A stretch of DNA of 64,000 bases from Rhizobium sp. Q54 (GTDB lineage Bacteria > Pseudomonadota > Alphaproteobacteria > CADEGL01), in NCBI GenBank assembly GCA_945860095.1, contig CAMAPP010000001.1, positions 3,741 to 67,740 on the forward strand, written 5' to 3'. Numbering within the stretch: the first letter of the stretch is position 1; the number at the start of each line of letters is the position of its first letter. The translations under genes were made by a program, and so were the position numbers. Below the pieces are notes generated by a model that saw only the letters and a list, made by a program, of their open reading frames with translations, made no database searches and had not been told where the DNA came from. This document shows, piece after piece, positions 3,219 to 24,857 of this stretch.

Positions 3219-3226
3219 GCATCGAC

Positions 3227-6274: not shown

Positions 6275-8053
6275 ATGGGGCAATTGTTCCACATGTTGAC
6301 GGCGGCGGAACGGACGCGGGGTCTCGTCGTGCTCGTCGTCCTCATCGCCATGGCCGCGGTCGAGGTCGTCGGCGTGGCGGCGATCGCGGCCTTCATCGCC
6401 CTTCTGACCAACCCCGGCGCGGCTTCGGGCAATCGCTGGCTACTGGAAATCGGCCGGCAGCTCGGATCCCAGGACGGCGCGGATCTATTGCTGCCCGCCG
6501 GTCTCGCACTATTCGCCGTGATCGTTTTCCGCAATTTTTATTCGGCCTTCGCCTCCTGGTCGCGGCTGTCCTATCTCCATCACTTGCGCAAGAGGTTGGC
6601 CACGCGCCTGCTCGCGAGTTATCTAGCCCAGCCCTACGCCTTCTTTCTGCGCGCCAATAGCGCGACCCTGGTCAAGAACCTGACCTTCGAGGTCAACCAG
6701 CTGGTCACGGCCTATCTTTATTCCTGGCTGGTGATCGCGGCCGACGCGCTGACGACCTTGGCCATCCTGGGGCTTCTGCTGTACCGCGACCCCGTCATCA
6801 CCGCGATCGCGGTCGGGGTCCTCGGCACCGTCGCCTTGGCGGTTCTTCTGGGTTCGCGGAGCCTCGTGCGCGCGCTCGGCACCCGGCACCGCGCGCTGAA
6901 CGACCGCCTGCACCGCACGGCCACCGAAGCCGTCTCGGGCATAAAGGAACTCAAGGTCCTGGGCCGCGAGCGGCATTTTCTTGACCGCTTCGCCTCGATT
7001 TCCGACCGCTTCGCCGGCACGACGGTGTCCTTCCAATTGTTCAACGAATTGCCGCGCTACGGGCTCGAGATCGTCGTCTTCGGCGGCATGTTGCTGATGG
7101 CCTGGCTGGTGGTCGAGCGCGCGGGCTCGGTGCTGCCCGTCGCCGAAACGCTGGCGCTGTTCGTCGTGGCCTTCTACCGGCTTTTGCCCATCACCCACCG
7201 CATTTTGTCGAGCGCCTCGGGGCTGTCGTTCAATCACGCTATCCTGGCCGATCTTTCGGGAAGCCTTCGCGCGGGTCACGGCGCCGCAGAGGCATTGGCG
7301 CCGATGTCGCAAGCCCTGCCGTTCGCGCGCGATATCGAGTTTCGGGGCGTGCACTTTCGCTACGACGGCGCGGTCGCGGATGCGCTCGGCGGCGTCGATC
7401 TCTTGGTTCCGAAGAACGCGACGATCGCCTTCGTCGGCCCCACGGGCGTGGGCAAGACGACCATCGTCGATCTGATGCTGGGCCTGCACCGGCCGACGGG
7501 CGGCGCCATTCTCGTGGACGGGGTCGAGATAGCGCCCAATCGCGTGCGCGCCTGGCAAGCCAATGTGGGTTACGTGCCGCAAGCGATCTATCTCGCCGAC
7601 GACACCATCCGGCGCAACATCGCCCTCGGCGTGCCGGACGCGGACATCGACGAGGCGCGCATCGCCGCGGCCGCGCGCATGGCCCAGCTCGATCGCTTCG
7701 TCGAGACCTTGCCGGACAAGTACGACGCCATGGTCGGCGAGCGCGGCGTGCGGCTTTCGGGCGGACAGCGCCAACGCATCGGCATCGCCCGGGCGCTTTA
7801 CGGCCAGGCCAATGTCCTAATCTTGGACGAAGCCACCAGCGCGCTCGACGGCATCACCGAGGCCGTGATCGAGGAATCCATCGCCGGCCTGCGCGGCCAA
7901 GCAACCGTGGTGATCATCGCGCACCGTTTGTCCACGGTTCGGCATTGCGACCGGATCTACCTGCTCGAGGCCGGGCGCGTGGTGGCAGCGGGCGGGTACG
8001 ACGAATTGATGCGCGACAATCAGACCTTCCGCGCCATGGCGCGCGCCGTTTGA
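6275..8053 (+). CDS. ABC transporter, fused permease/ATPase (MsbA/PglK-type exporter)
   Basis: An N-terminal multi-TM domain is followed by Walker A (GPTGVGKTT), the signature LSGGQRQRIGIARAL and Walker B (ILILDEATSALD). Confidence 0.85.
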   Translation: MGQLFHMLTAAERTRGLVVLVVLIAMAAVEVVGVAAIAAFIALLTNPGAASGNRWLLEIGRQLGSQDGADLLLPAGLALFAVIVFRNFYSAFASWSRLSYLHHLRKRLATRLLASYLAQPYAFFLRANSATLVKNLTFEVNQLVTAYLYSWLVIAADALTTLAILGLLLYRDPVITAIAVGVLGTVALAVLLGSRSLVRALGTRHRALNDRLHRTATEAVSGIKELKVLGRERHFLDRFASISDRFAGTTVSFQLFNELPRYGLEIVVFGGMLLMAWLVVERAGSVLPVAETLALFVVAFYRLLPITHRILSSASGLSFNHAILADLSGSLRAGHGAAEALAPMSQALPFARDIEFRGVHFRYDGAVADALGGVDLLVPKNATIAFVGPTGVGKTTIVDLMLGLHRPTGGAILVDGVEIAPNRVRAWQANVGYVPQAIYLADDTIRRNIALGVPDADIDEARIAAAARMAQLDRFVETLPDKYDAMVGERGVRLSGGQRQRIGIARALYGQANVLILDEATSALDGITEAVIEESIAGLRGQATVVIIAHRLSTVRHCDRIYLLEAGRVVAAGGYDELMRDNQTFRAMARAV

Positions 8054-9864
8054 TGGCCGAGCTCGTCCTATACACGCGCGCCGACGCCGCCCGGGCCGCG
8101 GCCAGGAAACCGCCGGAGGTCTCGGCCGTGCTCGGCCTGACGCCGAATGCGCGCGCGGCGGCGGCGGGGCTTGGATTGCCCATGATCGATCCGATGACGC
8201 GCTACGGCGATGTGCGCCAGGCGCGCGACGTGGCGCGCGTCGTGCGCGTCCGGCGCCGGATGCTGAAGGCGCTCGGTCCCATAAGCGCCGTGGAGCGCGA
8301 ACTTCTCATCGACCAGTTCAACCGCGTCGCCTATTCGGCGCTGCGGCTTTGGCACACATTGGGCGAAACAGGCCCGTGGCTGGTACCCGCAGAGAGCGGC
8401 TCGTTCGCCCTAATTTCCGCGCGCGAGGCGGCGCATGGCTGCCTGCTGGCCCACATCCTCGACCCCAAGGTCGCCGCCGAGACCGAAGCGGCGGCGATCC
8501 GCACCCCGCCCTTGCCCGCGCTCTACCGCGCGCTTCGCCGCCTCGCGCTTTGGCGCCATCCATCGAGCGATGTCCGTCTGGCGCTCGGCATGGCCAAGGA
8601 GCAGTTCGGTCTGTTCGAGGCCTTCGCGCGCCAGGGCAAGGCCGCGCGCACCCTGTTCGTCGGCCTGCCGCAGCGCGGCGCGTGGGAGTACGTGAAGCTC
8701 GCGCGCGAGGCTTTGCGCAATCTCCGCGCGAAGGGCCTCGTGCAAGTGAGCTTGGCGCCGTCGCGCGCCGGCACGGATGGCGGTCTTGCGGCGCGTGCCG
8801 CGGACGCGGTGGCGGACCGGGCGATTTCACCGGCCTTCGCGCGTTACGTGCCGCTCGTCGCGGCGAAACTCGGATACTTGGCATCGGCGCGCCTGGATGC
8901 ACGACGCGTGTTCGCCCAGGCCCGGCCCCACGCCTTCACCGCGGCCGAGATTTCCACCTTCGGCAATTGGATCGTGGCCGAGGCGGCCGGCGAGGCCGGC
9001 GTGCCGCGCATGGTCATGAGCCGCAACGCCCACACCGCGCCCGACCGTCCGCTCGCACGCGATTCGGCCATCGGATACTTGCGCGCGCGCTATCCACGGG
9101 ACCTGGTGGACCAACCCCTGTTCTGGTCGCCGGCCGGCGCGCGGGCGGGGGAATGCGCCCGGCGCCCCGGCGAATGGCCACGCATTCGCCCGCTCGTCGC
9201 GCGGCGCCCGGCACAGGGCTCCCGGCCTCCGCGCGCGGCGCCGTCCGTGGAACGCGTCGTCCTGTTGGCCGACACCTATGCCGCCTGGTGGTTTCCGCAT
9301 TCCTGGATTTTCCTGACGGGCGACGAATTCGTGGCCGCGGCGCGGGAACTAGCCGCCGCGATCGCACCGCTGGCGCACACGCGCCTCGTCATTCGCGCCA
9401 AGAAAAAGCCCAAATGCGATTTGGCGGCATTGACCGCGCTCGTCGATCCCAAGGGCAATTGCGCGATCAATACGCGCGAAGTGCCGTTCGAGGAAGATTT
9501 GGCGCGGGCGGACCTGCTGGTCGCCTTTCATTCGACCACCATCGAGGAAACCCTGATCGCGCGAAAGCCGGTCCTGCTGTGGGGCGGAACGGCGCGCCAC
9601 GAATATCTTGCCGCGCGCGAGGTTCGGCCCACGGCGCAGGACCGCGGCGCCGTCTATGGCGTGCGCCGGCCAGGGGCGCTTGGCCCCATGATCGCGGCCG
9701 TGCTCGACGCCCACCACGGCCGCCCGCTGTCGGACGACGAAGCCGCCCCTTACGCCTGGCCGCGCGACACCATGAATGTCGGCGATCTGGCCGTGGAGAT
9801 CGTGAACCGGGCAAGCGCGGGCGTTCCCCCGCGAGAAAAGGAGGCCTCCCTTGCCGCACGGTGA
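8053..9864 (+). CDS. Hypothetical protein with a Capsule_synth-like (KpsS/KpsC-type) C-terminal domain; putative glycosyl/ulosonic-acid transferase
   Basis: WWFPHS and LLVAFHSTTIEETLIARKPVLLWGG resemble the YYPLHQEPE and VVTICGTAGFESAVLGRPVIAFG motifs of the KpsS-like gene at the window start. The start overlaps the ABC gene stop (TGATG). Confidence 0.45.
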   Translation: MAELVLYTRADAARAAARKPPEVSAVLGLTPNARAAAAGLGLPMIDPMTRYGDVRQARDVARVVRVRRRMLKALGPISAVERELLIDQFNRVAYSALRLWHTLGETGPWLVPAESGSFALISAREAAHGCLLAHILDPKVAAETEAAAIRTPPLPALYRALRRLALWRHPSSDVRLALGMAKEQFGLFEAFARQGKAARTLFVGLPQRGAWEYVKLAREALRNLRAKGLVQVSLAPSRAGTDGGLAARAADAVADRAISPAFARYVPLVAAKLGYLASARLDARRVFAQARPHAFTAAEISTFGNWIVAEAAGEAGVPRMVMSRNAHTAPDRPLARDSAIGYLRARYPRDLVDQPLFWSPAGARAGECARRPGEWPRIRPLVARRPAQGSRPPRAAPSVERVVLLADTYAAWWFPHSWIFLTGDEFVAAARELAAAIAPLAHTRLVIRAKKKPKCDLAALTALVDPKGNCAINTREVPFEEDLARADLLVAFHSTTIEETLIARKPVLLWGGTARHEYLAAREVRPTAQDRGAVYGVRRPGALGPMIAAVLDAHHGRPLSDDEAAPYAWPRDTMNVGDLAVEIVNRASAGVPPREKEASLAAR

Positions 9865-10858
9865 TAATTCCGCCCCACGCAAGCGCGTCGGCCTTCTCGG
9901 AATCGGCCAAGCGGGCCTGCAACATGCCCGCGCCGTAGCCGCATGCGGGCATTTGGTCGCAAGCGCCGCCGCGAGCGGAACCACCTCCCCGCGCCTCGAA
10001 GCCTTCCGCCGCGCGGCACCGGACGCAAAGATCGTCATCGGCATCGATGCCTTGCTGGCCGATGACAGCCTGGACGCGATCATCGCGGCATTGCCTTGGG
10101 ACGTGGGCCCGCGCCATCTCGACGATCTTTTGCGCCACCCCAAGCCCGTCTTGCTGGAAAAGCCGATCGCACTCGACGCCGCATCGATCGCACGTGCCCT
10201 TTGCGCGCCCGGCGCCAAGTCCAAGAACAAGATGGTCGGCTTCAACCGGCGGTTCTACGGCACGTCGGCGCGCATGCGGGCGCGCTTGGCCGAGGGCGGC
10301 CTCAAGGCCGTGCGTGTGACGATTTCCGAGGACTTAACCAGGCAGGAACGCGCGCATGGCGCGGCGGTTCTCGGCCATCTGATGGCGTTTTCCTCATCCC
10401 ACGCCCTCGACCTCGTCCGCCATCTGCTGGGCGAGCTCAAGATCGTCCGGCTTTACGGCCATGCCGAGCGCGACGTGCCGTTTCTATCCATCAACGGCTT
10501 GCTGGAGACGCGCGACGGCGTACCGGTGCTGTTGACCCTCAATGCCAGCGATCCGAGCCCGGCCGGCATTTCCTTCGTCTTCGCCGACCGCACGACCTGG
10601 AATCTGTCGCCCCTCGAAATGCTGGCGGTCTTCGACCGCTACGAGGTGGTCGAGCTGCGGCCCGGCTCGCAAATCCGGCGCTACATGCCGCATCTGCGGG
10701 ACATGCACGACGAAACGGCCGATTTCAAACCGGGCTTCGTCCAACAGATGGCGGCCTTTCTGGCGGGCGATTTCGGACCTGGCGCCACACCGGAGGATGC
10801 CTTGGCCGTGCAGACCATGATCGAAGCGATGGCGCGCGCGGCGCACCCCGGCGCATGA
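9851..10858 (+). CDS. Gfo/Idh/MocA family oxidoreductase
   Basis: The N-terminal Rossmann segment (VGLLGIGQAG...) and the EKP motif are present. Confidence 0.65.
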   Translation: MPHGDNSAPRKRVGLLGIGQAGLQHARAVAACGHLVASAAASGTTSPRLEAFRRAAPDAKIVIGIDALLADDSLDAIIAALPWDVGPRHLDDLLRHPKPVLLEKPIALDAASIARALCAPGAKSKNKMVGFNRRFYGTSARMRARLAEGGLKAVRVTISEDLTRQERAHGAAVLGHLMAFSSSHALDLVRHLLGELKIVRLYGHAERDVPFLSINGLLETRDGVPVLLTLNASDPSPAGISFVFADRTTWNLSPLEMLAVFDRYEVVELRPGSQIRRYMPHLRDMHDETADFKPGFVQQMAAFLAGDFGPGATPEDALAVQTMIEAMARAAHPGA

Positions 10859-10886
10859 TCCAGCCCCAGCGGAGAAGGAAACCCTC

Positions 10887-11864
10887 ATGACGGAACCGAC
10901 CGCCGTGCGCGGGCCCTCGGATTATCGCGATCCGCATCTCGAGCATCGCAAGGCGCAAGAGCGCGCGCATTTCGCCGCCGGCGATGCGAATACCGATCCC
11001 ATGTCCAGCTTGATCACCATCGAGCTGAACGTCACGGAATTGTGCAATCGCAAATGCGTGTTCTGTCCGCGGGTCGATCCGGCGATCTATCCAAATCAGA
11101 ATTTGAACATGGACCGCGCGATGGTCGACCGCGTGGCCGACGAAATGGTCCGCCTCGGCCTGCGCTCGCGCCTGTCCTTTTCGGGCTTCGGCGAGCCCCT
11201 GCTGCACAAGTCCTTCCCGGAGATCGTGCGCACCCTGCGCGCGCGCCTGCCCGAGAACACCATCGAGGTGAACACCAATGGCGACCGCCTGACAGCCGCG
11301 CGCATTCGCGAACTGTTCGCTGCGGGCCTCACCTATTTGTACATCAATCTTTACGATGGGCCCGAGCAAGCGGCGCATTTCGAGGCCATGGTGGCCGATG
11401 CCGGCGCGCCCGAGGGGCGCTGGAAATTGCGGCCGCACTGGGTTGGCGCCGAGAAGGATTTCGGCCTCACGCTCAACAACCGCTCCGGCATGGTGAATGC
11501 GCCCGAGGCGGGAATCGGCCCGCTGGCGACGGCGCTGTCGACGCGCTGCCACTACCCCTTCTACAAGATGCTCATCGATTGGAACGGCGACGTGATGTTC
11601 TGCTCCAACGACTGGGGCCGCGAGATCAAGATCGGCAATCTTGGCAGCCAAGGCCTCGACGAATTGTGGCTGGCGCAAAAGATGTTCGAGGTCCGCCGCC
11701 GCCTGATGACGGGCGATCGCGGTTTTTCGCCGTGCGCGAAATGCAGCGTGCACGGCACATTGTCGGGTGGGCCGAGCTTCCGCACCCTCGTGAGGCACTA
11801 TCTCGATCGGGGCGCGCTACCGGCCGCGGAACTGCCCGCGGATTTGGCCGATTTGAAGCGCTGA
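10887..11864 (+). CDS. Radical SAM protein with C-terminal SPASM/twitch-like Cys-rich domain
   Basis: Has the CNRKCVFC (CxxxCxxC) cluster, GFGEPLL and a C-terminal Cys cluster (CHYPFYKMLIDWNGDVMFCSNDW ... CAKCSVHG). The true start may instead be the internal Met (MSSLITIELNV...). Confidence 0.75.
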   Translation: MTEPTAVRGPSDYRDPHLEHRKAQERAHFAAGDANTDPMSSLITIELNVTELCNRKCVFCPRVDPAIYPNQNLNMDRAMVDRVADEMVRLGLRSRLSFSGFGEPLLHKSFPEIVRTLRARLPENTIEVNTNGDRLTAARIRELFAAGLTYLYINLYDGPEQAAHFEAMVADAGAPEGRWKLRPHWVGAEKDFGLTLNNRSGMVNAPEAGIGPLATALSTRCHYPFYKMLIDWNGDVMFCSNDWGREIKIGNLGSQGLDELWLAQKMFEVRRRLMTGDRGFSPCAKCSVHGTLSGGPSFRTLVRHYLDRGALPAAELPADLADLKR

Positions 11865-11914: not shown

Positions 11915-12190
11915 ATGGCAATGACGGCGCCAACCTTACCCAGCACCGGCCCGATCGCCCCCCGCCTCGGCGGCGAGTTGCCGGCGGGCGCGGACGGCGC
12001 GCCCACTGCGCCGTGGGCGCTGCCGGCGGACGTGCTTGCCTTCAGCCATGACCGCGCGGCCCTGTCATGGCTTCATGCGGCGCGCGGTCCGTTCCGGAGC
12101 GCGCTGCATGAAGCCTATACCTGTCCGAGCGTGCCGGAGAATATTATCGAAATTAATACCCATGGTGATGTCGGATTAATCCATGACTGA
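11915..12190 (+). pseudogene. Truncated 5' remnant of a DegT-like aminotransferase gene (paralogue of 12998..14077)
   Basis: The product ...LAFSHDRAALSWLHAARGPFRSALHEAYTCPSVPE... aligns with ...LYFSHGRAALRWIVGARGPFAGALVCAYTWPTVPD... of the intact gene. The remnant has high GC and ends exactly at the start of the low-GC acetyltransferase gene. Confidence 0.45.
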
Positions 12191-12893
12191 CTATTTTGTT
12201 GTCGATAAAGACGTTGAAAATCTTCTGCCTCAAGATACGCTGGCCTTCGATGGGCGCGTGCGGATTGGCAGCCGCGCCAAAATATCGGTGGGCACTCGGA
12301 TCGAGCCTCCAGTCTTAGTCGCATCGGGCGCGCGCATTTTAGACGGAGTTTCGATCGGCAAGTATTCTTACGTCGGTCGCAATACCATCGTGACCCGCGC
12401 TGACATTGGGTGCTTCTGCAGCATCGCACATGATTGCCAAATTAATTATTTCCGCGGACACCCGATGGATTGGTTAAGTACTCATACATTTCAGTATGAT
12501 CGCGATAATTTTGCTTTTTGGAGCGGTTATTCCGGTTTTACAAAGCAGCATTTTGATGGCGATACCACTCAAGCAAAGGTTGTGATTGGCGCGGATGTTT
12601 GGCTCGGAGCTGGCGTGTATATATTCGGAGGCGTCACGATTGGTTCGGGTGCGATCATTGGTGCGCGCGCAATGGTTCAGCGCGACATACCTGCCTATGG
12701 CGTCGCGGTCGGGGCACCCGCCAAGGTCAAGAACTACAGGTTCGATCAAAAATTAATCGAAAAATTGCTCGCCATCGAATGGTGGACGCTTGATGAGTCA
12801 TTGCTGCGCGACTTGCCGTTTTACGACGTAAATCGCTGTCTGGAGTTGCTGGACGAGCGGACGTTAAATTCCAAGTCATCCCCTGGAATTTAG
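12183..12893 (+). CDS. Hexapeptide-repeat (left-handed beta-helix) acetyltransferase, Vat/CatB-like
   Basis: Imperfect hexapeptide repeats are present (IGADVWLGAGVYIFGGVTIGSGAIIGARAMV). The N-terminal 60 bp sampled is about 40% GC. Confidence 0.8.
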   Translation: MTDYFVVDKDVENLLPQDTLAFDGRVRIGSRAKISVGTRIEPPVLVASGARILDGVSIGKYSYVGRNTIVTRADIGCFCSIAHDCQINYFRGHPMDWLSTHTFQYDRDNFAFWSGYSGFTKQHFDGDTTQAKVVIGADVWLGAGVYIFGGVTIGSGAIIGARAMVQRDIPAYGVAVGAPAKVKNYRFDQKLIEKLLAIEWWTLDESLLRDLPFYDVNRCLELLDERTLNSKSSPGI

Positions 12894-12997
12894 TAGGAAG
12901 CACGTACCGGCGATGTTTAGAGACATGCCCCGCTCGGATCTCTGCGTGACGGAGGATATTTTCCGCCGCCCAATCCGTCTCCCGAACAGCGCGGCGC

Positions 12998-14077: not shown

Positions 14078-14088
14078 GTGGTGATGCG

Positions 14089-15030: not shown

Positions 15031-15080
15031 GGCATGATGGTGACGTGTGCGGCTGCTGTTATCAACGGATATTGGCTCTG
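15031..15080. promoter_or_regulatory. Short divergent intergenic region between the epimerase (-) and NeuC copy 1 (+); likely divergent promoters
   Basis: Inferred only from the divergent gene arrangement. Confidence 0.2.
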
Positions 15081-16244
15081 ATGCTTCGGGTATGCCTTGT
15101 CACTGGTTCGCGCGCCGAATATGGCCTGTTGCGCCCCGTTATTGCGGCCTTGAAGGCCGAGCAAGGTATGATCGTAAGTCTGGTCGTAACGGCGATGCAC
15201 TTGTCGCCCGAGTTTGGACTTAGCATTGGCGAGATCGAAGCGGACGGTCACCGCATCGATGCACGCGTCGAGATGCTGCTTTCCTCGGATTCCGGCGTTG
15301 GCGTCGCCAAGTCGATGGGGCTTGGCACGATCGGCCTTGCCGACGTTTTTGCCCGGATTGCACCGGACATCATCATTTTATTCGGCGACCGTTTTGAGAC
15401 GCTCGCAGCGGCACAGTCCGCGCTCGTCATGCGGATTCCGGTTGCGCACGTGTCCGGAGGCCATGTCACACATGGCGCATTCGACGATGCGATTCGACAT
15501 AGCATCACGAAAATGTCGCATATCCATTTCGCGACCACTGAAGAGGCGGGTTTGCGCATCCGGCAACTTGGTGAAGACACAGCCAACATTCATGTTGTCG
15601 GTGACCCGGGCATCGATGCAATTCGACTCACCAAGCGCCTGGCAAAGCCTGCCGTTGAGGAGCGGCTTGGCTTTCGTCTGCTTAGCCGAAATGTCCTCGT
15701 GACGTTCCATCCTGTCACGCTCGATCCGATTCCTTCAGTGCAGCAATTTGAAAATCTTCTAACTGCGCTGGATTCACTTGGGCCGAATATGGGCATCATT
15801 CTCACCAAGCCAAATGCCGATGTCGAAGGCCGCTCGCTCGGGGCCTTGGCGGAGGATTTTGCGGCCGGGCGCCCCAATGCCATCTGTCGCAGTTCACTCG
15901 GACACCTTCTTTATCTCAGCACCATGGCCGAGGTGGATGTCGTCATTGGGAATTCTTCAAGCGGTCTGCTGGAGGCTCCGTCGCTTGAAAAGCCGGCGGT
16001 CAATATCGGCATGCGGCAATCGGGCCGACCTAGGGCCGCTTCGGTAATCGACTGTCCAGCGGATGCGCGAGCCATCGGGGACGCAATACAGCGCGCCTTT
16101 AGGCTCGACTGCCGTGGCGTGGTAAATCCTTACGGTGACGGCCATGCGGCAGAGCGCATCCTAGCGGTATTGAAGATGACGCGCGATCCGCAGGCGCTGC
16201 TCTACAAACGCTTCCGCGACCTTCCTCCTACAAACTCCAGGTGA
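15081..16244 (+). CDS. UDP/GDP-N-acetylglucosamine 2-epimerase (hydrolysing), NeuC/LegG family, copy 1
   Basis: VTGSRAEYGLLRPV, HVSGGHVTHGAFDDAIRHSITKMSHIHF and GNSSSGLLEAPS are typical of NeuC. An alternative GTG start lies at 15045. Confidence 0.8.
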   Translation: MLRVCLVTGSRAEYGLLRPVIAALKAEQGMIVSLVVTAMHLSPEFGLSIGEIEADGHRIDARVEMLLSSDSGVGVAKSMGLGTIGLADVFARIAPDIIILFGDRFETLAAAQSALVMRIPVAHVSGGHVTHGAFDDAIRHSITKMSHIHFATTEEAGLRIRQLGEDTANIHVVGDPGIDAIRLTKRLAKPAVEERLGFRLLSRNVLVTFHPVTLDPIPSVQQFENLLTALDSLGPNMGIILTKPNADVEGRSLGALAEDFAAGRPNAICRSSLGHLLYLSTMAEVDVVIGNSSSGLLEAPSLEKPAVNIGMRQSGRPRAASVIDCPADARAIGDAIQRAFRLDCRGVVNPYGDGHAAERILAVLKMTRDPQALLYKRFRDLPPTNSR

Positions 16245-17080
16245 CGGTTGTGAGTAAAAACGCCGTCTACGCTCCATTGTTTGACCTGGCTGGCCGCCGC
16301 GCCATCATCACGGGTGCCTGTGGGACGCTCGGGCCTGCGTTCGCGGCGGCGCTTGCCGAAATGGGCGCCTCGGTCGTGGTTTCCGACATTGATGCGTCCA
16401 ATGCCGAGGCGCTGGCCGCCGAACTCGCACAGGCCCACGGTCGCCGCACGCTTGGGCTGTCCTGTGACGTTAGCAACGCGACCGCCGTCGATGAAATGAT
16501 CGAACGCGCAGTTCAAGCTTTCGGCGGCATCGACATCCTGGTCAACAATGCCCAAGCGGCCAACCCTAATCCCAGCCGCTATTTCGATCCGCTGGAACAT
16601 TATTCGTTCGAGGAGTGGCGGCGTCGGATGTCTGTCGACCTCGACGGCATGTTCCTGGTGGCTCAAGGCACTGCTCGGCGCATGGCGAAGCAAGATACCG
16701 GTGGCGCGATCGTGCAAATCGCTTCGATTTATGGCGCGCTCGGTCCCGACCAACGTATCTACGAGGGGGCGGGGTTTCGCGGCGCTCCGATCAATCTGCC
16801 GCCGGTCTATTCGGCCGCCAAGGGTGGAGTCATTGGGCTGACGCGTTGGCTTGCGACGTGGGGGGCCGACAAAGGCATCCGTGTTAATGCGCTGGTGCCT
16901 GGCGGCGTCGAAAGCGGTCAGAATGACGAGTTCGTGAAAAAATATAGCCAGCGTGTTCCGCTTGGCCGCATGGCGCGCCGCGAAGAGGTAGCGTCCTCGT
17001 TGTTGTGGCTTGTTTCGGATGCCGCAAGCTATGTTACAGGGCAGACGATCTTCGTCGATGGCGGATTGAGCGCGTGGTGA
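16241..17080 (+). CDS. SDR family oxidoreductase (PtmA-like)
   Basis: ITGACGTLG glycine-rich motif, NNAQ and the YSAAK catalytic motif are present. The GTG start overlaps the upstream stop. Confidence 0.8.
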   Translation: MTVVSKNAVYAPLFDLAGRRAIITGACGTLGPAFAAALAEMGASVVVSDIDASNAEALAAELAQAHGRRTLGLSCDVSNATAVDEMIERAVQAFGGIDILVNNAQAANPNPSRYFDPLEHYSFEEWRRRMSVDLDGMFLVAQGTARRMAKQDTGGAIVQIASIYGALGPDQRIYEGAGFRGAPINLPPVYSAAKGGVIGLTRWLATWGADKGIRVNALVPGGVESGQNDEFVKKYSQRVPLGRMARREEVASSLLWLVSDAASYVTGQTIFVDGGLSAW

Positions 17081-18558
17081 CTCTGGCAGAGGCTAACGGC
17101 GGTATTCCGCTCACGTTGTACGGCGTGAGTCCGGAGGAGCTCGCCGAGGACGTCTATTACCGTCGAGACTTCTTCGAATTACATCGTGGCTCCGGTTTCA
17201 TCGATTGCATCGAGGGGCCCTCGTTTCATGCCGGCGCGGTCGTGCGCGCCATCGAGGGGACCGATCTGGAAGACCTAGAAACACCATGGGGCTATGGCGG
17301 TCCGATCGCGACCAGCCATGAACAGATGCGACAAGGCATGTGGCTGTGGCGTCAGCGCCAGCGTGAGGCCGGCCGAGTGGCTGAATTCGTGCGCCTGCAC
17401 CCATTCCTCAATCCACTGGCCGTCCACGATTACTATGCTGACATCAAGTTTGATCGTGTAACGATTGCCGTCGATCTATCGCTGCCACGCGAACAACGCC
17501 GTCGCGTCTATTCCGAAGGCACCAAGAACCGACTTCGCCGCGCGGCACGAAGCATGACAGTTGTGAGACTCGGAATCGAACACGCCGAAGATTTTCGGCG
17601 CTGCTACGAAACCGGACTAGACCGCAATAACGCGCTCTCTGCCTATTATTTTGGCGATGACTATTATGAGAAAATTCTCGCGTCGCCTTGGGCGACGTGC
17701 CTTGGCGGGCAATTGGATGGCGAGATTGTATCGATTGCGTGTTTCCTCCATACGGGAATATTTTGCCACTACCATCTGTCCGGTTCGACGTCGGACGGAC
17801 GCGCTAAGTTTGCACACTATCTTCTACTTGATCATGCATTTGATTATTTTTCGGAAAAAGGCGCGCGCCTCATGCATCTCGGCGGCGGCCGGACGGAACG
17901 GCCAGACGATGCGCTGCTGGAGTTCAAGAAGAAGTTTTCCCGTTGGCGCCTAGCGTTCTACACGGCCGGTGCCATCTATGACCCCGAAGCCTATGCCCAG
18001 CTTTCGACTGGGGACACGCGGCGCTTCTTGAACTATCGGTTTAGCCTCACCCCTCGTGATGAGGTCGGCGATGTGGTCTTGCGCAAAGCAACGATTCAAG
18101 ACCTCACCTCCTATTTTCAATTGAAATGCGATGTCTCAAATATTTTTTGGTCTGGACATGTGTCACCGCCGGACTGGCGTCATTTAAGTGCCTGGTATAC
18201 CGCTTTATTCAACGAAAATATGAAGCGCGAAGTCTTTATCGCTGAGATGCATTCACGGGTCATCGGCTACGCGTATCTCGACGACAAGAATGATCATCTC
18301 GAGTCGACATTGGGGGTCGCGGCATCGGAGTCAAACCGCGCACGCGGCCGCCATCTACTTATGGAGATGGTCAAGATATTGCGAGAGCGAAACGAAACAC
18401 GTTCGGTGGAAGCGTGGATTTTTAAGGAGAACATCGCGTCCGTGAAGGCACACGAGGCAGCGGGTTTTGTTTTGGATTCGAGCCGACCGACAAGATCGTC
18501 CAATATGCCTTTCGTTAAAAACGGTAATATTCAAAGTTGCTGGGTGTGGAGGGTTTAG
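17074..18558 (+). CDS. FemAB-like (Acetyltransf_6/aminoacyl-transferase fold) domain fused to a C-terminal GNAT acetyltransferase domain
   Basis: The N-terminal roughly 340 aa resemble FemAB/peptidoglycan-bridge-type transferases. The C-terminal part is a classic GNAT (VIGYAYLD ... RARGRHLLMEMV ... AAGF). The start is taken as a GTG overlapping the SDR stop; track entry 17005 is probably over-extended. Confidence 0.55.
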   Translation: MVTLAEANGGIPLTLYGVSPEELAEDVYYRRDFFELHRGSGFIDCIEGPSFHAGAVVRAIEGTDLEDLETPWGYGGPIATSHEQMRQGMWLWRQRQREAGRVAEFVRLHPFLNPLAVHDYYADIKFDRVTIAVDLSLPREQRRRVYSEGTKNRLRRAARSMTVVRLGIEHAEDFRRCYETGLDRNNALSAYYFGDDYYEKILASPWATCLGGQLDGEIVSIACFLHTGIFCHYHLSGSTSDGRAKFAHYLLLDHAFDYFSEKGARLMHLGGGRTERPDDALLEFKKKFSRWRLAFYTAGAIYDPEAYAQLSTGDTRRFLNYRFSLTPRDEVGDVVLRKATIQDLTSYFQLKCDVSNIFWSGHVSPPDWRHLSAWYTALFNENMKREVFIAEMHSRVIGYAYLDDKNDHLESTLGVAASESNRARGRHLLMEMVKILRERNETRSVEAWIFKENIASVKAHEAAGFVLDSSRPTRSSNMPFVKNGNIQSCWVWRV

Positions 18559-18559
18559 C

Positions 18560-19732
18560 GTGGGATTGTCTCGCAAGAAAGTATGCGTAGTCACCGGCAC
18601 ACGCGCCGAGTTTGGTCTGCTTCGTCCGGTCATGGCGCTTCTCAAGAAGGATTCGGCTTTTGACCTTCAGGTCATCGCCTCGGCCATGCATCTGGTGCCG
18701 GAATTCGGATTGACGTACCGCGAAATCGAAGCGGCGGGATTTGATATCGATGCAAAGGTAGAGATGCTGATCGCCGGCGACACGCCTGCGGCCGCGGCAA
18801 AGTCGATGGGAATCGGCACCATGGGCTTCGCTGATGCATTTTCTCGACTTGAACCCGATATGATCATGCTATTGGGCGATCGATTCGAGGCGCTCGCCGC
18901 CGCTTCGACCGCGACGGTCATGGGCATTCCCATCATCCATTTGGTGGGGGGCGACGTTACCGAAGGCGCCTTCGACGATGCCATTCGGCACGCGATTACA
19001 AAGATGTCCCATCTGCACTTTGTGGCCTCGAAGGAATCAGGTGGCCGAGTCCGGCAAATGGGTGAGGAGCCGTTTCGTGTGCATGTCGTGGGCGATCCTG
19101 GACTCGATGGTCTGCGGCAGATGACATTGATTGGTCGGAAAGCCCTGGAACGAGATATCGGATTTCGGTTTCGTCACAAGAATCTCGTTGTCACCTTTCA
19201 CCCAGCGACGCTCGATCGTATTCCGTCGACCAAGCAGTTCGCCACCGTGTTGGATGCGCTCGACAGCCTTGGTCCGGATTTTGGCCTTATCTTCACTAAA
19301 CCGAACGCCGATCCGCAAGGGCGGGCGCTCATCGTCATGCTCGATGCGTTTGTTCGGGATCACCCGAATTCGGCTGCTTTCGTGTCTTTAGGGCAGCGCC
19401 GCTATCTAAGCGTCATGGCGCAATGTGACGCAGTCGTCGGCAATTCGTCGTCAGGGCTCTTAGAGGCGCCGTCGTTGGGCATACCCACGATCAACATAGG
19501 AAGCCGCCAGAATGGCCGTCTGAAGGCGAAGACGGTTTATGATTGTTCTGTGGACAAGGCGGGGATAGTTAGGGCGCTTCGCAAAGCCCTGAGCGGGCGT
19601 ATTGGAAAGGTGGATAATCCACATGGAGATGGCCATACGGCGCCTCGAATCATACGCATACTGAAAAAGGTACGCGATCCAAAGAGCCTATTGCGCAAAT
19701 CCTTCCATAACCTCAATCGATCCCTTGTCTGA
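18560..19732 (+). CDS. UDP/GDP-N-acetylglucosamine 2-epimerase (hydrolysing), NeuC/LegG family, copy 2
   Basis: Shares roughly 50-55% identity with copy 1 (VTGTRAEFGLLRPV, HLVGGDVTEGAFDDAIRHAITKMSHLHF, GNSSSGLLEAPS). GTG start. Confidence 0.8.
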   Translation: MGLSRKKVCVVTGTRAEFGLLRPVMALLKKDSAFDLQVIASAMHLVPEFGLTYREIEAAGFDIDAKVEMLIAGDTPAAAAKSMGIGTMGFADAFSRLEPDMIMLLGDRFEALAAASTATVMGIPIIHLVGGDVTEGAFDDAIRHAITKMSHLHFVASKESGGRVRQMGEEPFRVHVVGDPGLDGLRQMTLIGRKALERDIGFRFRHKNLVVTFHPATLDRIPSTKQFATVLDALDSLGPDFGLIFTKPNADPQGRALIVMLDAFVRDHPNSAAFVSLGQRRYLSVMAQCDAVVGNSSSGLLEAPSLGIPTINIGSRQNGRLKAKTVYDCSVDKAGIVRALRKALSGRIGKVDNPHGDGHTAPRIIRILKKVRDPKSLLRKSFHNLNRSLV

Positions 19733-20804
19733 CCGGGTTTACATCATCGCGGAGGCGGGGGTGAACCATAACGGTTCGCTCGATATGGCGCTTCGGTTGA
19801 TAGATTGCGCCGCTGAGGCTGCCGCGGATGCGGTGAAATTTCAGACGTTCAAGGCCGAAAAGGTGGTGACCGCCGCCGCACCTAGGGCGGCGTATCAAAT
19901 TGCGAATGTGGGCGAGGATGGCTCGCAGATCGAATTGATTCGGAATTTGCAACTTGATGAATCGGATTTTTATAAACTCGCCGCTCATGCAGCCGCGTGC
20001 AATATCGAATTCATGTCCACGCCCTTCGACCTCGAATCATTGCAATTTCTCGTGCACGAAATTGGCATCCGCCGGCTTAAAATTCCCTCTGGCGAAATCA
20101 CCAACATCTTCTTATTGCTAGGTGCGGCGCGATCGAAGCTTCCACTAATTGTCTCGACGGGCATGTGCACGCTCGACGACATCGAAGCGGCCTTGGACGT
20201 GCTTGCCTTTGGCCTCGTCCAGCCCAATGTCGCGCCTTCCGCAAATCGTATTTGGGGCGCTTCCACCAGCGCGGCCGGCCGTGCCGCCTTGATGGAAAAG
20301 GTGACGTTGCTCCACTGCACTACGGAGTATCCAAGTCCGGTGGAAGATACAAATTTGCGCGCAATGCAGACCATGCGCGATAAATTCAACCTTCCGGTTG
20401 GTTATTCTGACCACACCAGTGGCATCGCAATTCCTGTTGCCGCGGCAGCTCTGGGCGCAACTGTGATCGAAAAGCATTTCACTCTTGATCGCTCACTGCC
20501 GGGCCCGGACCACCCCGCCTCTCTGGAACCTACTGAATTGAAGTCGATGGTTCAATTCGTGCGCAAATCGGCTGCGGCATTAGGGCGGTCTGAAAAATTA
20601 CCAGCGCCTTCCGAACTTAAAAACATTCCGATTGCACGGCGCAGCCTAGTCGCCGCGCGCTCGATTCGGCACGGGGAAACGCTTGACCTGTCGATGCTCG
20701 ACGCAAAGCGCCCTGGTACGGGCCTGTCGCCAATGCGCATATTTGACATCGTCGGGACCAAGGCTAAGCGTGATTACGCTCCAGATGAGGCGATTGAATC
20801 GTGA
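19725..20804 (+). CDS. N-acetylneuraminate synthase family (NeuB/LegI/PseI-type nonulosonic acid synthase)
   Basis: The N-terminus YIIAEAGVNHNGS, the conserved core and a C-terminal SAF-like domain are present. Confidence 0.85.
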   Translation: MSDRVYIIAEAGVNHNGSLDMALRLIDCAAEAAADAVKFQTFKAEKVVTAAAPRAAYQIANVGEDGSQIELIRNLQLDESDFYKLAAHAAACNIEFMSTPFDLESLQFLVHEIGIRRLKIPSGEITNIFLLLGAARSKLPLIVSTGMCTLDDIEAALDVLAFGLVQPNVAPSANRIWGASTSAAGRAALMEKVTLLHCTTEYPSPVEDTNLRAMQTMRDKFNLPVGYSDHTSGIAIPVAAAALGATVIEKHFTLDRSLPGPDHPASLEPTELKSMVQFVRKSAAALGRSEKLPAPSELKNIPIARRSLVAARSIRHGETLDLSMLDAKRPGTGLSPMRIFDIVGTKAKRDYAPDEAIES

Positions 20805-21451: not shown

Positions 21452-21473
21452 CATAGGCCTGAATTCTCCTCAT

Positions 21474-24694: not shown

Positions 24695-24716
24695 GATTGA
24701 TCTGAAACTTACGGTC

Positions 24717-24857
24717 ATGAGTAGGGGGGTGCCGAGTCGGGTGGACGAGCGCGGGCGGATCTGGCCGGATGCGGCCGCGCTCGAGGACGCCGTCTTGGCC
24801 GGCGCCGCCACGGCCGACCCCGGCTATTTCCGCCGTCTTTTGGCGGGCGATTCGTGA
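24717..24857 (+). pseudogene. 3' remnant of a resident homologue of the 526-aa Capsule_synth-like gene
   Basis: It encodes ...RIWPDAAALEDAVLAGAATADPGYFRRLLAGDS*, which parallels the C-terminus ...RFRVDFSELEEAICGTGSEPDPSYFRRLTSG* of 23114..24694. It is high-GC and keeps a GTGA overlap with the next gene. Confidence 0.4.

What the first reader, a model, noticed from the sequence alone, without database searches (positions are those of the whole stretch)
10887..11864. Radical SAM/SPASM-type enzyme embedded in a sugar-nucleotide pathway
CxxxCxxC (CNRKCVFC) plus a C-terminal Cys cluster indicates a radical SAM enzyme with an auxiliary Fe-S domain. No obvious peptide substrate gene is adjacent; the next ORF is a gene remnant. 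In this context it may catalyse a radical C-methylation, epimerisation or dehydration on a sugar or NulO. No such step is known in Leg or Pse pathways.
Basis: partly seen in the sequence, partly recalled or inferred. Interest (0 to 1): 0.6.

Follow-up and report, generated by a model that had tools for sequence, protein, structure and literature searches.

The report
BtrN-like radical SAM sugar oxidase
This intact gene encodes a small iron-sulfur "radical SAM" enzyme whose closest known relative oxidises a sugar-like alcohol in antibiotic synthesis; it belongs to a large uncharacterised family that travels with a partner reductase in sialic-acid-like surface-sugar gene clusters and in marine phages, so it probably makes a sugar modification nobody has described yet.

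Summary
ORF 10887-11864(+) is an intact 325-aa radical SAM protein with CNRKCVFC and a C-terminal Cys cluster, and the downstream stretch is a gene remnant. The C-terminal domain is a Twitch, not a full SPASM. The protein has exactly seven Cys, all invariant in 148 relatives: three for the SAM cluster and four for one auxiliary cluster.

BtrN, the radical SAM 2-deoxy-scyllo-inosamine dehydrogenase, is by far the closest solved protein (profile E 5e-33, Foldseek E 3e-18). All four auxiliary Cys and Arg152 are matched. Peptide maturases, anSME, B12 methylases and viperins do not fit.

The gene sits in an apparent operon: ABC exporter, GT-B glycosyltransferase, GFO/IDH/MocA oxidoreductase, rSAM. 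It lies beside a legionaminic-acid-type NulO cassette.

Across about 200 related loci the constant neighbour is an NAD(P) oxidoreductase: GFO in bacteria, a 193-aa SDR in 35/35 viral contigs. An aminotransferase sometimes takes that place. NeuB/NeuC, KdsB-like, KpsF, WaaA and GT29 sialyltransferase genes recur nearby.

Best reading: it abstracts a carbinol hydrogen from a sugar, probably an ulosonic acid or its precursor, and forms a carbonyl. The partner then reduces it, giving an epimer or deoxy sugar; in relatives it is transaminated. Substrate and exact chemistry are inferred. The family is uncharacterised.

The parts
10887..11864 (+). Twitch-domain radical SAM enzyme, 325 aa, BtrN-like; the finding itself
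   Evidence: ORF and translation. Pfam Radical_SAM + SPASM. BtrN is the best PDB match by sequence (E 6.5e-21 for the single sequence; 5e-33 for the profile) and by fold (Foldseek E 3e-18, TM 0.79 on BtrN). AF2 model pLDDT 86.
11043..11066 (+). Codons for C53-x3-C57-x2-C60, ligands of the SAM-binding [4Fe-4S] cluster
   Evidence: CNRKCVFC. Invariant in 148 unique relatives. Aligns with BtrN C16/C20/C23.
11481..11483 (+). Codon for R199 in the invariant NNRSG motif, equivalent to BtrN Arg152
   Evidence: The HMMER alignment places NNRSG on BtrN SNRGG; residue count from the printed alignment gives R152. R199 is 148/148 conserved.
11547..11744 (+). Twitch (truncated SPASM) domain with C221, C239, C283 and C286, predicted ligands of one auxiliary [4Fe-4S] cluster
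   Evidence: Pfam SPASM covers residues 221-286. The four Cys align one-to-one with BtrN C169/C187/C232/C235. There are no other Cys in the protein.
10871..10879 (+). Shine-Dalgarno-like GGAGAAGGA, 7 nt upstream of the rSAM ATG
   Evidence: Read directly from the sequence.
9851..10858 (+). GFO/IDH/MocA NAD(P)-dependent sugar oxidoreductase, the conserved partner of the rSAM
   Evidence: Pfam GFO_IDH_MocA. The best NCBIfam and PDB matches are inositol 2-dehydrogenases, UDP-GlcNAc 3-dehydrogenase and a sugar 3-ketoreductase, all below the family cut-offs. EKP, GFNRRF and HxxD motifs are present. It lies directly next to the rSAM in 13 dereplicated cellular loci.
8053..9864 (+). 603-aa GT-B-fold protein, a putative glycosyltransferase with no Pfam family; co-conserved with the ABC exporter and the rSAM in NulO-type loci
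   Evidence: A 100% identical 603-aa protein, P0121, fixes the start. AF2 pLDDT 78. Foldseek top hits are GT-B glycosyltransferases and UDP-GlcNAc 2-epimerases. Its start overlaps the ABC stop and its stop overlaps the GFO start.
6275..8053 (+). Fused TMD-NBD ABC exporter, first gene of the apparent operon
   Evidence: Pfam ABC_membrane + ABC_tran. Conserved in the same position in relatives L001, L003, L006 and L042.
11936..12175 (+). Remnant: only the N-terminal ~70-95 codons of a ~350-aa gene family of unknown function; marks a recombination joint
   Evidence: tblastn matches residues 1-71 of the L001 homologue (56% identity, E 6e-15) and residues 23-96 of the intact window copy (47%, E 3e-13). 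GC falls from 0.65-0.71 to 0.54-0.62 just downstream.
12183..12893 (+). Hexapeptide-repeat acyltransferase (CatB/Vat-like); occupies the position held by a DegT aminotransferase in most close relatives
   Evidence: Pfam Hexapep. NCBIfam best matches are the phosphonate-associated and xenobiotic acetyltransferase types. The closest relative, L005 (75% identical rSAM), has the same rSAM-hexapeptide order.
15045..23117 (+). Legionaminic-acid-type NulO cassette: NeuC-like, SDR, FemX/GNAT, NeuC-like, NeuB, PglD-like, GFO, CMP-NulO synthetase. It gives the biological context and is not shown to act with the rSAM.
   Evidence: Pfam and NCBIfam PseF-like cytidylyltransferase. The same genes follow the rSAM in L001, L006 and L027.

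Best explanation
The gene encodes a Twitch-domain radical SAM enzyme that works like BtrN on a small carbohydrate, not on a peptide.

Proposed mechanism:
1. The CX3CX2C cluster reductively cleaves SAM.
2. The 5'-deoxyadenosyl radical removes the hydrogen from a hydroxyl-bearing carbon of the sugar.
3. The invariant Arg199 (BtrN Arg152) assists deprotonation.
4. The fully Cys-ligated auxiliary cluster takes the second electron, leaving a keto (or aldehyde) sugar.

In this window the carbonyl is most likely handled by the translationally coupled GFO/IDH/MocA oxidoreductase. Net result: inversion of a stereocentre or, if a neighbouring OH is lost, a deoxy centre. In relatives an adjacent aminotransferase converts the carbonyl to an amine, which is then N-acylated.

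The likeliest substrate class is a legionaminic-acid-type nonulosonic acid, another ulosonic acid, or the nucleotide-hexosamine precursor. The product would be built into a surface glycan by the co-operonic GT-B transferase and ABC exporter.

Shown: gene integrity, cofactor motifs, BtrN-like fold, operon layout, conserved partners and contexts. Inferred: carbonyl-forming chemistry, substrate class, and the role of the partner.
For: Homology and cofactor sites:
- BtrN is the only strong PDB match: phmmer E 6.5e-21 over nearly the full length, and family profile E 5e-33 against 4e-06 for the next protein.
- By fold, Foldseek gives E 3e-18 and TM 0.79 on BtrN. The next hits are BlsE, the Twitch dehydrogenase SpeY, anSME, PqqE and DesII.
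- The AF2 core has five strands and four helices, the abridged fold I recall for BtrN.
- There are seven Cys only, all invariant. The four distal ones align with BtrN's auxiliary ligands, and R199 aligns with Arg152.

Locus layout:
- ABC exporter, GT-B, GFO and rSAM have overlapping or closely spaced genes, and the rSAM has its own SD.

Partner pattern, which points to a carbonyl product:
- GFO is adjacent in 13 dereplicated cellular loci.
- A 193-aa SDR with TGxxGxxG/S/YxxxK follows the rSAM in 35/35 viral loci and 22/25 metagenome loci.
- A HisC-like or DegT aminotransferase is adjacent in 7/19 well-flanked cellular loci, mostly those without GFO.
- An Ldh_2 oxidoreductase is nearby in Bradyrhizobium.

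Ulosonic-acid context:
- NeuB/NeuC/CMP-synthetase genes.
- A KdsB-like cytidylyltransferase directly downstream in Latescibacterota; KpsF; WaaA plus GT9.
- A GT29 sialyltransferase-family gene directly downstream in Bradyrhizobium nitroreducens and in L037.

Precedents:
- BtrN with a DegT-type aminotransferase (own knowledge).
- KdnB/KdnA, Kdo 8-oxidase plus transaminase (PMC5125639; PDB 5k8b name).
Against: - No member of this family has been assayed. At about 25-29% identity to BtrN, the chemistry can differ.
- The window itself lacks the adjacent aminotransferase seen in relatives; a hexapeptide acyltransferase sits there instead.
- In close relatives the adjacent DegT is perosamine-synthase-like and may simply be the pathway's LegC.
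- NeuB lies within 8 kb in only 4 of 19 well-flanked cellular loci and in none of 35 viral loci. The link to NulO is therefore recurrent but not universal, and the true substrate could be a commoner metabolite.
- The GFO partner's closest relatives are inositol dehydrogenases, so a cyclitol substrate is not excluded.
- The window also has a PglF-like 4,6-dehydratase, a DegT and a PglD-like enzyme. Canonical legionaminic acid synthesis therefore needs no radical step.
- The role of Arg152 and the beta5/alpha4 description of BtrN come from my memory of Goldman et al. 2013, which could not be opened.
Confidence: 0.55

Rival explanations
1. AprD4/AprD3-type deoxygenation. The rSAM is a radical 1,2-diol dehydratase: it abstracts H from a carbinol and expels the neighbouring OH, giving a deoxy-ketone. 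The adjacent NAD(P)H enzyme (GFO here, short SDR in phages) reduces the ketone. The net effect is removal of one hydroxyl from the sugar, for example on the glycerol-like side chain of an ulosonic acid.
For: [quoted passage not shown] The first step, H abstraction from a carbinol, is the same as in BtrN, so the homology evidence does not discriminate. In phages the two genes stand alone among replication genes, which fits a self-contained two-step conversion.
Against: AprD4 does not appear among the sequence or fold matches. The features conserved with BtrN, a four-Cys auxiliary cluster and the Arg152 equivalent, are those tied to two-electron oxidation (PMC9012708). Aminotransferase-linked subfamilies fit either chemistry.
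Confidence: 0.2
2. The substrate is a cyclitol such as an inositol or inosamine, not a NulO. GFO (inositol-dehydrogenase-like) and the rSAM carry out successive oxidations as in diaminocyclitol pathways, and the product decorates the glycan through CDP-alcohol chemistry.
For: The two closest characterised Twitch dehydrogenases, BtrN and SpeY, act on aminocyclitols. GFO_a's best matches are inositol 2-dehydrogenases. The window has a CDP-alcohol phosphatidyltransferase and extra cytidylyl/nucleotidyl transferases upstream. A true BtrN orthologue shows what such a locus looks like.
Against: No inositol-phosphate synthase or DOI synthase is seen in the window or in the related loci examined. The GFO matches are far below the family cut-offs (62.8 bits against 355). 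The CDP-alcohol transferase is absent from the syntenic relative L042. Recurrent neighbours are ulosonic-acid genes and a sialyltransferase-family gene.
Confidence: 0.1
3. A different radical outcome on the sugar: direct epimerisation by H-atom return (NeoN-like), C-methylation, decarboxylation (BlsE-like) or C-C bond formation.
For: The radical SAM scaffold is versatile. BlsE, a decarboxylase acting on a glucuronic-acid nucleoside, and DesII are among the fold matches.
Against: There is no B12-binding domain and no second SAM site. No conserved Cys is left over to return an H atom, since all seven are cluster ligands. The BlsE and DesII matches are eleven or more orders of magnitude weaker than BtrN. 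An obligate NAD(P) partner is not explained by these chemistries.
Confidence: 0.1
4. Maturase of a peptide or protein encoded elsewhere (RiPP enzyme or anSME-type sulfatase maturase), exported by the neighbouring ABC transporter.
For: The Pfam SPASM hit and the weak NCBIfam hits to maturases. An ABC exporter lies two genes upstream. One distant relative has a sulfatase gene 6 kb away.
Against: All maturase models score far below their cut-offs, for example 61 bits against 380. There is only one auxiliary cluster, whereas anSME and most RiPP SPASM enzymes have two (PMC9012708). No RRE or PqqD-like domain was found. There is no room for a precursor gene next to the rSAM: 28 nt upstream, and a gene remnant downstream. 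The protein between the exporter and GFO has a GT-B glycosyltransferase fold. anSME is twelve orders of magnitude weaker than BtrN by fold.
Confidence: 0.04

Closest known systems
BtrN, radical SAM 2-deoxy-scyllo-inosamine dehydrogenase of butirosin biosynthesis (PDB 4M7T/4M7S)
   Same: Both are small (about 250-325 aa). Shared features are the CX3CX2C motif, an abridged five-strand core, a Twitch domain whose four Cys align one-to-one, a conserved Arg152 equivalent and several other shared Arg. BtrN is the best sequence and fold match by a wide margin.
   Different: - Identity is only about 24-29%.
- This family has a conserved 40-residue N-terminal helix (R21, Q24) that BtrN lacks.
- It has family-specific invariant polar residues where BtrN has neutral ones: R62, R182, H184, N154, Y156, D157 and R/K245.
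- It has no DOI synthase or 2-deoxystreptamine genes nearby, unlike a true orthologue in Sodalis.
- It sits in glycan loci and phages rather than antibiotic clusters.
SpeY, Twitch radical SAM dehydrogenase of spectinomycin biosynthesis (PDB 7WZV)
   Same: Twitch domain; radical oxidation of a carbinol that is followed by transamination; a fold match.
   Different: The match is much weaker (Foldseek E 4e-07; phmmer E 5e-05 over the core only). The pathway context is different.
AprD4/AprD3, radical SAM diol dehydratase plus NADPH reductase (aminoglycoside C3' deoxygenation)
   Same: A two-gene logic: a radical SAM enzyme creates a keto-sugar and a dedicated NAD(P)H reductase finishes the step (PMC5461906). 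That matches the GFO or SDR partner seen here.
   Different: No detectable sequence or fold similarity in the searches run. The partner enzyme families differ. The chemistry is dehydration rather than dehydrogenation.
KdnB/KdnA, Kdo 8-oxidase and Kdo8N transaminase of Shewanella
   Same: A functional analogy: an ulosonic acid hydroxyl is oxidised and then transaminated (PMC5125639; PDB 5K8B name). Subfamilies here pair the rSAM with an aminotransferase and KdsB-like, WaaA or sialyltransferase-like genes.
   Different: KdnB is an iron-type alcohol dehydrogenase, not a radical SAM enzyme. The adjacent aminotransferases here are mostly HisC-like, not KdnA-like. No product is known.
anSME (AtsB/anSMEcpe), anaerobic sulfatase-maturing enzymes
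   Same: Radical SAM dehydrogenation of an alcohol or thiol to a carbonyl, with an auxiliary cluster as electron sink.
   Different: anSMEs have a full SPASM domain with two auxiliary clusters, are about 370 aa, and act on a protein. Here there are only four distal Cys, the fold match is weak, and there is no cognate sulfatase.

Membership tests
Radical SAM superfamily (PF04055) | CX3CX2C motif ligating the SAM-binding [4Fe-4S] cluster | tested here: met
   C53/C57/C60 in CNRKCVFC; 148/148 conserved; Pfam 55.7 bits against a cut-off of 29.5.
Radical SAM superfamily (PF04055) | Glycine-rich 'GGE' SAM-binding motif after the second core strand | tested here: met
   S99-G100-F-G102-E103-P is invariant in alignment A1 and aligns with BtrN YGEP.
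SPASM subfamily (two auxiliary clusters) | Seven- or eight-Cys C-terminal motif binding two auxiliary Fe-S clusters | tested here: not met
   Only four Cys follow the core, and the protein has seven Cys in total. The Pfam SPASM HMM still matches residues 221-286 because a Twitch is a truncated SPASM (PMC9012708).
Twitch subfamily (one auxiliary cluster) | Truncated SPASM domain with ligands for a single auxiliary [4Fe-4S] cluster | tested here: met
   C221, C239, C283 and C286 are invariant and align with BtrN C169/C187/C232/C235. The fold match covers the domain. Actual cluster binding cannot be tested here.
BtrN-type radical SAM dehydrogenase (EC 1.1.99.38) | Abridged core fold plus Twitch domain superposable on BtrN | tested here: met
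   Foldseek E 3e-18, TM 0.79 normalised on BtrN. The model has five core strands and four helices.
BtrN-type radical SAM dehydrogenase (EC 1.1.99.38) | Arg152 next to the substrate hydroxyl (role recalled from Goldman et al. 2013) | tested here: met
   NNR199SG aligns with SNR152GG; R199 is 148/148 conserved.
BtrN-type radical SAM dehydrogenase (EC 1.1.99.38) | 2-Deoxystreptamine pathway context (DOI synthase, DOI aminotransferase) and DOIA as substrate | tested here: not met
   No DOI synthase in the window or in related loci. Contrast the Sodalis orthologue, which sits beside a DOI synthase. This protein is therefore not an orthologue; only the mechanism is borrowed.
BtrN-type radical SAM dehydrogenase (EC 1.1.99.38) | Two-electron oxidation of a secondary alcohol with stoichiometric SAM cleavage | not testable with these tools
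   Needs anaerobic enzymology.
anSME / AtsB sulfatase maturases | Two auxiliary clusters and a cognate Cys/Ser-type sulfatase substrate | tested here: not met
   One auxiliary site only. No anSME model appears among the NCBIfam hits shown. Fold match E 2e-06 against 3e-18 for BtrN. No sulfatase was found among the window ORFs scanned.
RiPP radical SAM/SPASM maturases | Precursor peptide gene and an RRE/PqqD-like recognition domain | tested here: not met
   Only the Radical_SAM and SPASM domains are found. Maturase models fall far below their cut-offs. The flanks hold GFO (28 nt away) and a gene remnant.
Class B (cobalamin) radical SAM methylases | N-terminal B12-binding domain (PF02310) | tested here: not met
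   Absent. As a contrast, genuine B12-rSAM genes in locus L030 are detected by the same scan.
AprD4-type radical SAM diol dehydratase | Dedicated NAD(P)H reductase partner encoded alongside | tested here: met
   GFO is adjacent here and in 13 cellular loci; a short SDR is adjacent in 35/35 viral loci.
AprD4-type radical SAM diol dehydratase | Sequence or fold similarity to AprD4 | tested here: inconclusive
   AprD4 is not among the PDB matches listed. I did not confirm that an AprD4 chain is in the libraries.
Prokaryotic viperins (pVip) | Full-length match to pVip models, including the C-terminal nucleotide-binding region | tested here: not met
   Only the N-terminal core (residues 45-143) matches, at 32 bits.

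The most novel reading that the evidence does not exclude
The rSAM plus NAD(P)H-oxidoreductase pair is a self-contained, oxygen-independent two-enzyme module that edits one hydroxyl of an activated ulosonic acid (legionaminic-type NulO or Kdo). It would yield an epimeric or deoxy derivative, or an amino derivative when an aminotransferase replaces the reductase. None of these products has been described. Abundant marine T4-like phages (probably pelagimyophages) would carry the same module to remodel the host surface glycan during infection.
Probability: 0.3. Interest if true: 0.8.

Novelty: new variant of a known kind. Interest (0 to 1): 0.6.

Why it matters
Radical SAM chemistry has no assigned place in nonulosonic-acid or Kdo biosynthesis; a full-text search found no paper that combines the two.

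This family is large. There are 1696 close homologues, 424 clusters at 50% identity with E<=1e-30 in the BtrN-like neighbourhood, at least 518 metagenome stretches and at least 486 viral contigs.

The family repeatedly sits next to sialic-acid-like sugar genes in Alphaproteobacteria, Gammaproteobacteria, Latescibacterota, Bacteroidota and candidate-phylum bacteria. If it installs a new stereocentre, deoxy position or amino group on these sugars, three things follow:
- the known chemical space of bacterial sialic-acid mimics would grow;
- BtrN-type radical dehydrogenation would extend from antibiotic pathways to cell-surface glycans;
- a widespread phage auxiliary gene pair would gain a function.

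Cultured carriers exist (Bradyrhizobium nitroreducens TSA1, Mesorhizobium loti DSM 2626), so this is directly testable.

Tried and rejected
- Family assignment by NCBIfam gave 55 weak hits, none near its cut-off, so there is no equivalog.
- Cultured-phage genomes (INPHARED, tblastn) gave no match at 1e-10.
- PHROGs gave only generic radical SAM families at about 25 bits, and nothing for the SDR or GFO partner.
- PADLOC gave only a core match to pVip.
- Plasmids gave three distant hits, one of them a genuine BtrN orthologue.
- BFVD fold search returned only distant uncultured-phage SPASM proteins (E 1e-10, 14-17% identity).
- The AlphaFold DB fold library was not available.
- The BtrN structure paper, the SPASM/Twitch review and the Kdo8N paper could not be opened. 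Statements taken from them are marked as memory.
- Exact-sequence look-up of the GT-B protein for the source contig failed. Cluster look-up only says 'MAG: Alphaproteobacteria bacterium'.
- I considered that GFO plus rSAM might replace the missing LegB 4,6-dehydratase in relatives. I rejected this as unnecessary for this genome, because a PglF/WbpM-like dehydratase lies at 46570-48534.
- I considered that the HisC-like aminotransferases were KdnA-like. I rejected this because KdnA is a DegT-family enzyme and the HisC-like proteins match histidinol-phosphate aminotransferases.
- The family of the downstream remnant (intact copy at 12998-14077) has no Pfam, NCBIfam or PDB match.
Full report
**Observation**

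The ORF at 10887-11864 (+) is exactly as described. It runs from ATG to TGA, encodes 325 aa and contains ELCNRKCVFCPR. A Shine-Dalgarno-like GGAGAAGGA lies 7 nt upstream of the ATG.

Pfam finds Radical_SAM (residues 48-161, 55.7 bits) and SPASM (residues 221-286, 43.9 bits), both above their gathering cut-offs. A search of 5.8 billion proteins returns 1696 homologues at E<=1e-5. These include a 100% identical protein and many at 50-73% identity, all with generic names.

Two overlapping ORFs in other frames have no family hits and are typical of a 65% GC genome.

The downstream 'remnant' is real. Bases ~11936-12175 encode only the first 70-95 residues of a ~350-aa family that is intact at 12998-14077 and in relatives.

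**Anatomy**

The protein has exactly seven cysteines, and each is 100% conserved in 148 unique relatives from genomes, metagenomes and viral contigs.
- Three form the CX3CX2C site.
- The other four (C221, C239, C283, C286) are enough for one auxiliary cluster only.

This is therefore a Twitch domain rather than a two-cluster SPASM domain. PMC9012708 gives the definitions and states that the BtrN auxiliary cluster has four Cys ligands and is thought to be the electron acceptor.

The GGE-type motif SGFGEP and about 50 other positions are invariant. These include R55, R62, R182, R199, R270 and R278.

**Closest relatives**

By sequence, the only strong match in the PDB is BtrN.
- The single sequence gives E 6.5e-21 over residues 34-286.
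- The family profile gives E 5e-33, and the next protein is at 4e-06.

The printed alignment puts C221/C239/C283/C286 on BtrN C169/C187/C232/C235. It also puts the invariant NNR199SG on BtrN SNR152GG.

An AlphaFold model built on 34 sequences (pLDDT 86, pTM 0.87) has five core strands and four helices.
- Foldseek ranks BtrN first (E 3e-18, TM 0.79 on BtrN).
- It is followed at E>=2e-07 by BlsE, SpeY (a Twitch dehydrogenase), anSME, PqqE and DesII.

From memory of Goldman et al. 2013, BtrN has just such a beta5/alpha4 core, and Arg152 lies at the substrate hydroxyl. I could not open that paper.

A plasmid hit in Sodalis praecaptivus, next to a 2-deoxy-scyllo-inosose synthase, shows what a true BtrN orthologue looks like. 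It is 29% identical to the window protein.

No NCBIfam model comes near its cut-off. The family is BtrN-like in mechanism-bearing features, but it is not BtrN and has not been characterised.

**Local context**

The window from ~1 to 48.5 kb is one large surface-polysaccharide region.

Upstream of the rSAM:
- a Capsule_synth-like fragment
- a CDP-alcohol phosphatidyltransferase
- a HisF-like and a WbuX amidotransferase pair (acetamidino formation)
- a CMP-type cytidylyltransferase
- a CBS-nucleotidyltransferase
- an ABC exporter
- a 603-aa protein
- a GFO/IDH/MocA oxidoreductase

The 603-aa protein has no family match, but it folds as a GT-B glycosyltransferase. The exporter, GT-B, GFO and rSAM genes overlap or nearly abut, which suggests one operon.

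GFO_a carries the EKP, GFNRRF and HxxD motifs. It most resembles inositol 2-dehydrogenases, UDP-GlcNAc 3-dehydrogenase and a sugar 3-ketoreductase, all below the family cut-offs.

Downstream of the rSAM:
- the remnant
- a CatB/Vat-like hexapeptide acyltransferase
- the intact unknown gene
- an epimerase/reductase on the other strand
- a legionaminic-acid-type cassette: two NeuC-like genes, an SDR, a FemX/GNAT protein, NeuB, a PglD-like gene, a second GFO and a PseF-like cytidylyltransferase

GC drops from 0.65-0.71 to 0.54-0.62 right at the remnant. The rSAM therefore lies at a recombination joint.

Further on lie:
- a GFO/hexapeptide/DegT/GNAT-WbqC amino-sugar module
- glycosyltransferases
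- a Wzy_C protein
- a PglF/WbpM-like 4,6-dehydratase

The canonical legionaminic acid route is thus available without any radical step.

**Comparative context**

Close relatives (65-76% identity) keep the order ABC, GT-B, GFO, rSAM, followed by DegT aminotransferase, the unknown ~350-aa protein, FemX/GNAT, NeuC, NeuB, PglD, GFO, cytidylyltransferase and SDR. That DegT is perosamine-synthase-like, that is, a GDP-sugar 4-aminotransferase type, and it may be the pathway's LegC. The closest relative (75%) and the window have the hexapeptide acyltransferase in that place instead.

I fetched 39 genome loci, 80 metagenome loci and 80 viral loci. I then clustered the neighbours and counted partners in loci with at least 2.5 kb on both sides.

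| Neighbour of the rSAM | 19 cellular loci | 25 metagenome loci | 35 viral loci |
|---|---|---|---|
| GFO adjacent | 7 | 2 | 0 |
| 193-aa short-chain dehydrogenase adjacent | 2 | 22 | 35 |
| HisC-like aminotransferase adjacent | 5 | 1 | 0 |
| DegT aminotransferase adjacent | 2 | 0 | 0 |
| NeuB within 8 kb | 4 | 1 | 0 |
| Any ulosonic-acid gene within 8 kb | 10 | 2 | 0 |

The short-chain dehydrogenase carries the TGxxGxxG, Ser and YxxxK signatures.

Other recurrent neighbours:
- a KdsB/NeuA-like cytidylyltransferase directly downstream in three Latescibacterota loci
- KpsF-type isomerases
- a Kdo transferase plus heptosyltransferase in Bacteroidota
- GT8 transferases
- a GT29 sialyltransferase-family gene directly downstream in Bradyrhizobium nitroreducens TSA1 and another alphaproteobacterium, with an Ldh_2 oxidoreductase in the former

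In one alphaproteobacterial MAG the order is NeuB, ABC, HisC-like aminotransferase, GNAT, rSAM, NeuC, NeuB, WbqC, GT-B, cytidylyltransferase.

The link is real and recurs across phyla, but it is seen in a minority of loci. The constant feature is an enzyme that consumes a carbonyl.

**Viral copies**

At least 486 IMG/VR contigs encode a relative at 46-52% identity. Their neighbours include T4 RNase H, a RimK-type ATP-grasp, a SleB-like hydrolase, a PD-(D/E)XK nuclease and carbamoyltransferase. These are T4-like marine phages.

A paper on pelagimyophages notes radical SAM cassettes and GT8-rich LPS genes in such genomes (PMC7029224). Cultured-phage collections and PHROGs lack the family.

**Mechanism**

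Three lines of evidence converge on a small-molecule, carbonyl-forming reaction on a carbohydrate:
- the BtrN-like fold, cluster ligands and Arg;
- an alternation of partners, either an NAD(P) oxidoreductase (GFO, SDR, Ldh_2) or an aminotransferase, all of which use a ketone or aldehyde;
- glycan-locus context, with a glycosyltransferase and an exporter in the same operon.

I therefore propose the following steps:
1. H abstraction from a carbinol carbon.
2. Loss of a second electron to the auxiliary cluster.
3. Release of a keto-sugar.
4. In this window, reduction by GFO_a, giving net epimerisation or a deoxy centre if a vicinal OH leaves first.
5. In relatives, transamination in place of step 4.

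Family-specific invariant basic residues have neutral counterparts in BtrN: R62, R182, H184 and R/K245. This suggests an anionic substrate such as an ulosonic acid or a nucleotide sugar. That point is inference.

Precedents are BtrN with its aminotransferase (own knowledge), AprD4/AprD3 (PMC5461906) and KdnB/KdnA for Kdo8N (PMC5125639; PDB name).

**Rivals**

- *AprD4-like dehydration plus reduction.* This is the main alternative and cannot be separated from dehydrogenation by sequence.
- *A cyclitol substrate.* It is possible, but no cyclitol-forming enzyme was seen.
- *Methylation, direct epimerisation or decarboxylation.* These lack the required domains or residues.
- *Peptide or protein maturation.* This is contradicted by cluster count, size, scores, neighbours and the GT-B protein.
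- *Viperin-type function.* This is not supported.

**Novelty and verdict**

The kind, a Twitch radical SAM enzyme acting on a sugar-like alcohol, is known. This family, its obligate reductase or aminotransferase partner, its placement in ulosonic-acid glycan loci and its spread in marine phages are not described. The literature search for radical SAM with nonulosonic acids returned nothing. One paper only notes an unassigned radical SAM ORF in some Legionella LPS loci (PMC3766260).

I rate it a new variant of a known kind, with interest 0.6.

Noticed in passing
L128-L207 (IMG/VR viral contigs), e.g. L095 10001-10858 and the following ORF: At least 486 viral contigs encode this rSAM family at 46-52% identity. 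In every one checked it is followed by a ~193-aa short-chain dehydrogenase. The pair sits among T4 RNase H, RimK ATP-grasp, SleB hydrolase and PD-(D/E)XK nuclease genes. These are probably pelagimyophages. The family is absent from cultured-phage collections and from PHROGs.
   Followed up: partly
window 11936-12175 and 12000-25000: A 5' fragment of an unknown ~350-aa gene marks a joint where GC falls from 0.65-0.71 to 0.54-0.62. The whole NulO cassette downstream looks like a replaced or acquired block, with a second intact copy of the same gene family and two NeuC-like genes.
   Followed up: partly
window 8053-9864: A 603-aa protein with no Pfam, NCBIfam or PDB sequence match. Only 15 homologues were found, and it is predicted to have a GT-B glycosyltransferase fold. 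It is always paired with the ABC exporter in NulO-type loci, so it is a candidate new NulO/glycan transferase family.
   Followed up: partly
L032 10864-11550 (Bradyrhizobium nitroreducens TSA1); L037 10852-11532: A GT29 (eukaryote-type sialyltransferase family) gene lies directly downstream of the rSAM, with a HisC-like aminotransferase upstream and an Ldh_2 oxidoreductase after it. This gives a compact candidate cassette in a cultured organism.
   Followed up: partly
window 1783-4483: A HisF-like cyclase subunit plus a WbuX N-acetyl-sugar amidotransferase, which implies an acetamidino-substituted sugar. No HisH-like gene was identified in the part of the window examined.
   Followed up: no
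window 959-1786: A CDP-alcohol phosphatidyltransferase is inserted between the Capsule_synth-like ORF and the HisF-like gene. It is absent from the syntenic relative L042, so it may add a phospho-alcohol substituent specific to this strain.
   Followed up: no
window 30583-34415: A second amino-sugar module: GFO oxidoreductase, hexapeptide acetyltransferase, DegT aminotransferase and a GNAT-WbqC fusion. It resembles WbpB/WbpD/WbpE-type 3-amination logic.
   Followed up: no
window 46570-48534 and 48562-50148: A PglF/WbpM-like membrane 4,6-dehydratase closes the glycan region, and purH follows. This probably marks the end of the polysaccharide locus.
   Followed up: no
L029 10001-10828 and 12772-13617 (Litoricola MAG): Two paralogous copies of the rSAM family (the second is 26% identical to the query) lie 2 kb apart, beside two NeuB genes.
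   Followed up: no
L030 12850-16153 (Latescibacterota): Two tandem B12-binding radical SAM genes lie three and four genes downstream of the Twitch rSAM, in a cluster with a KdsB-like cytidylyltransferase and HisC-like and DegT aminotransferases. This locus may carry several radical sugar modifications.
   Followed up: no
window 51460-56274 (-): A 1604-aa ORF on the minus strand outside the glycan locus; not examined.
   Followed up: no
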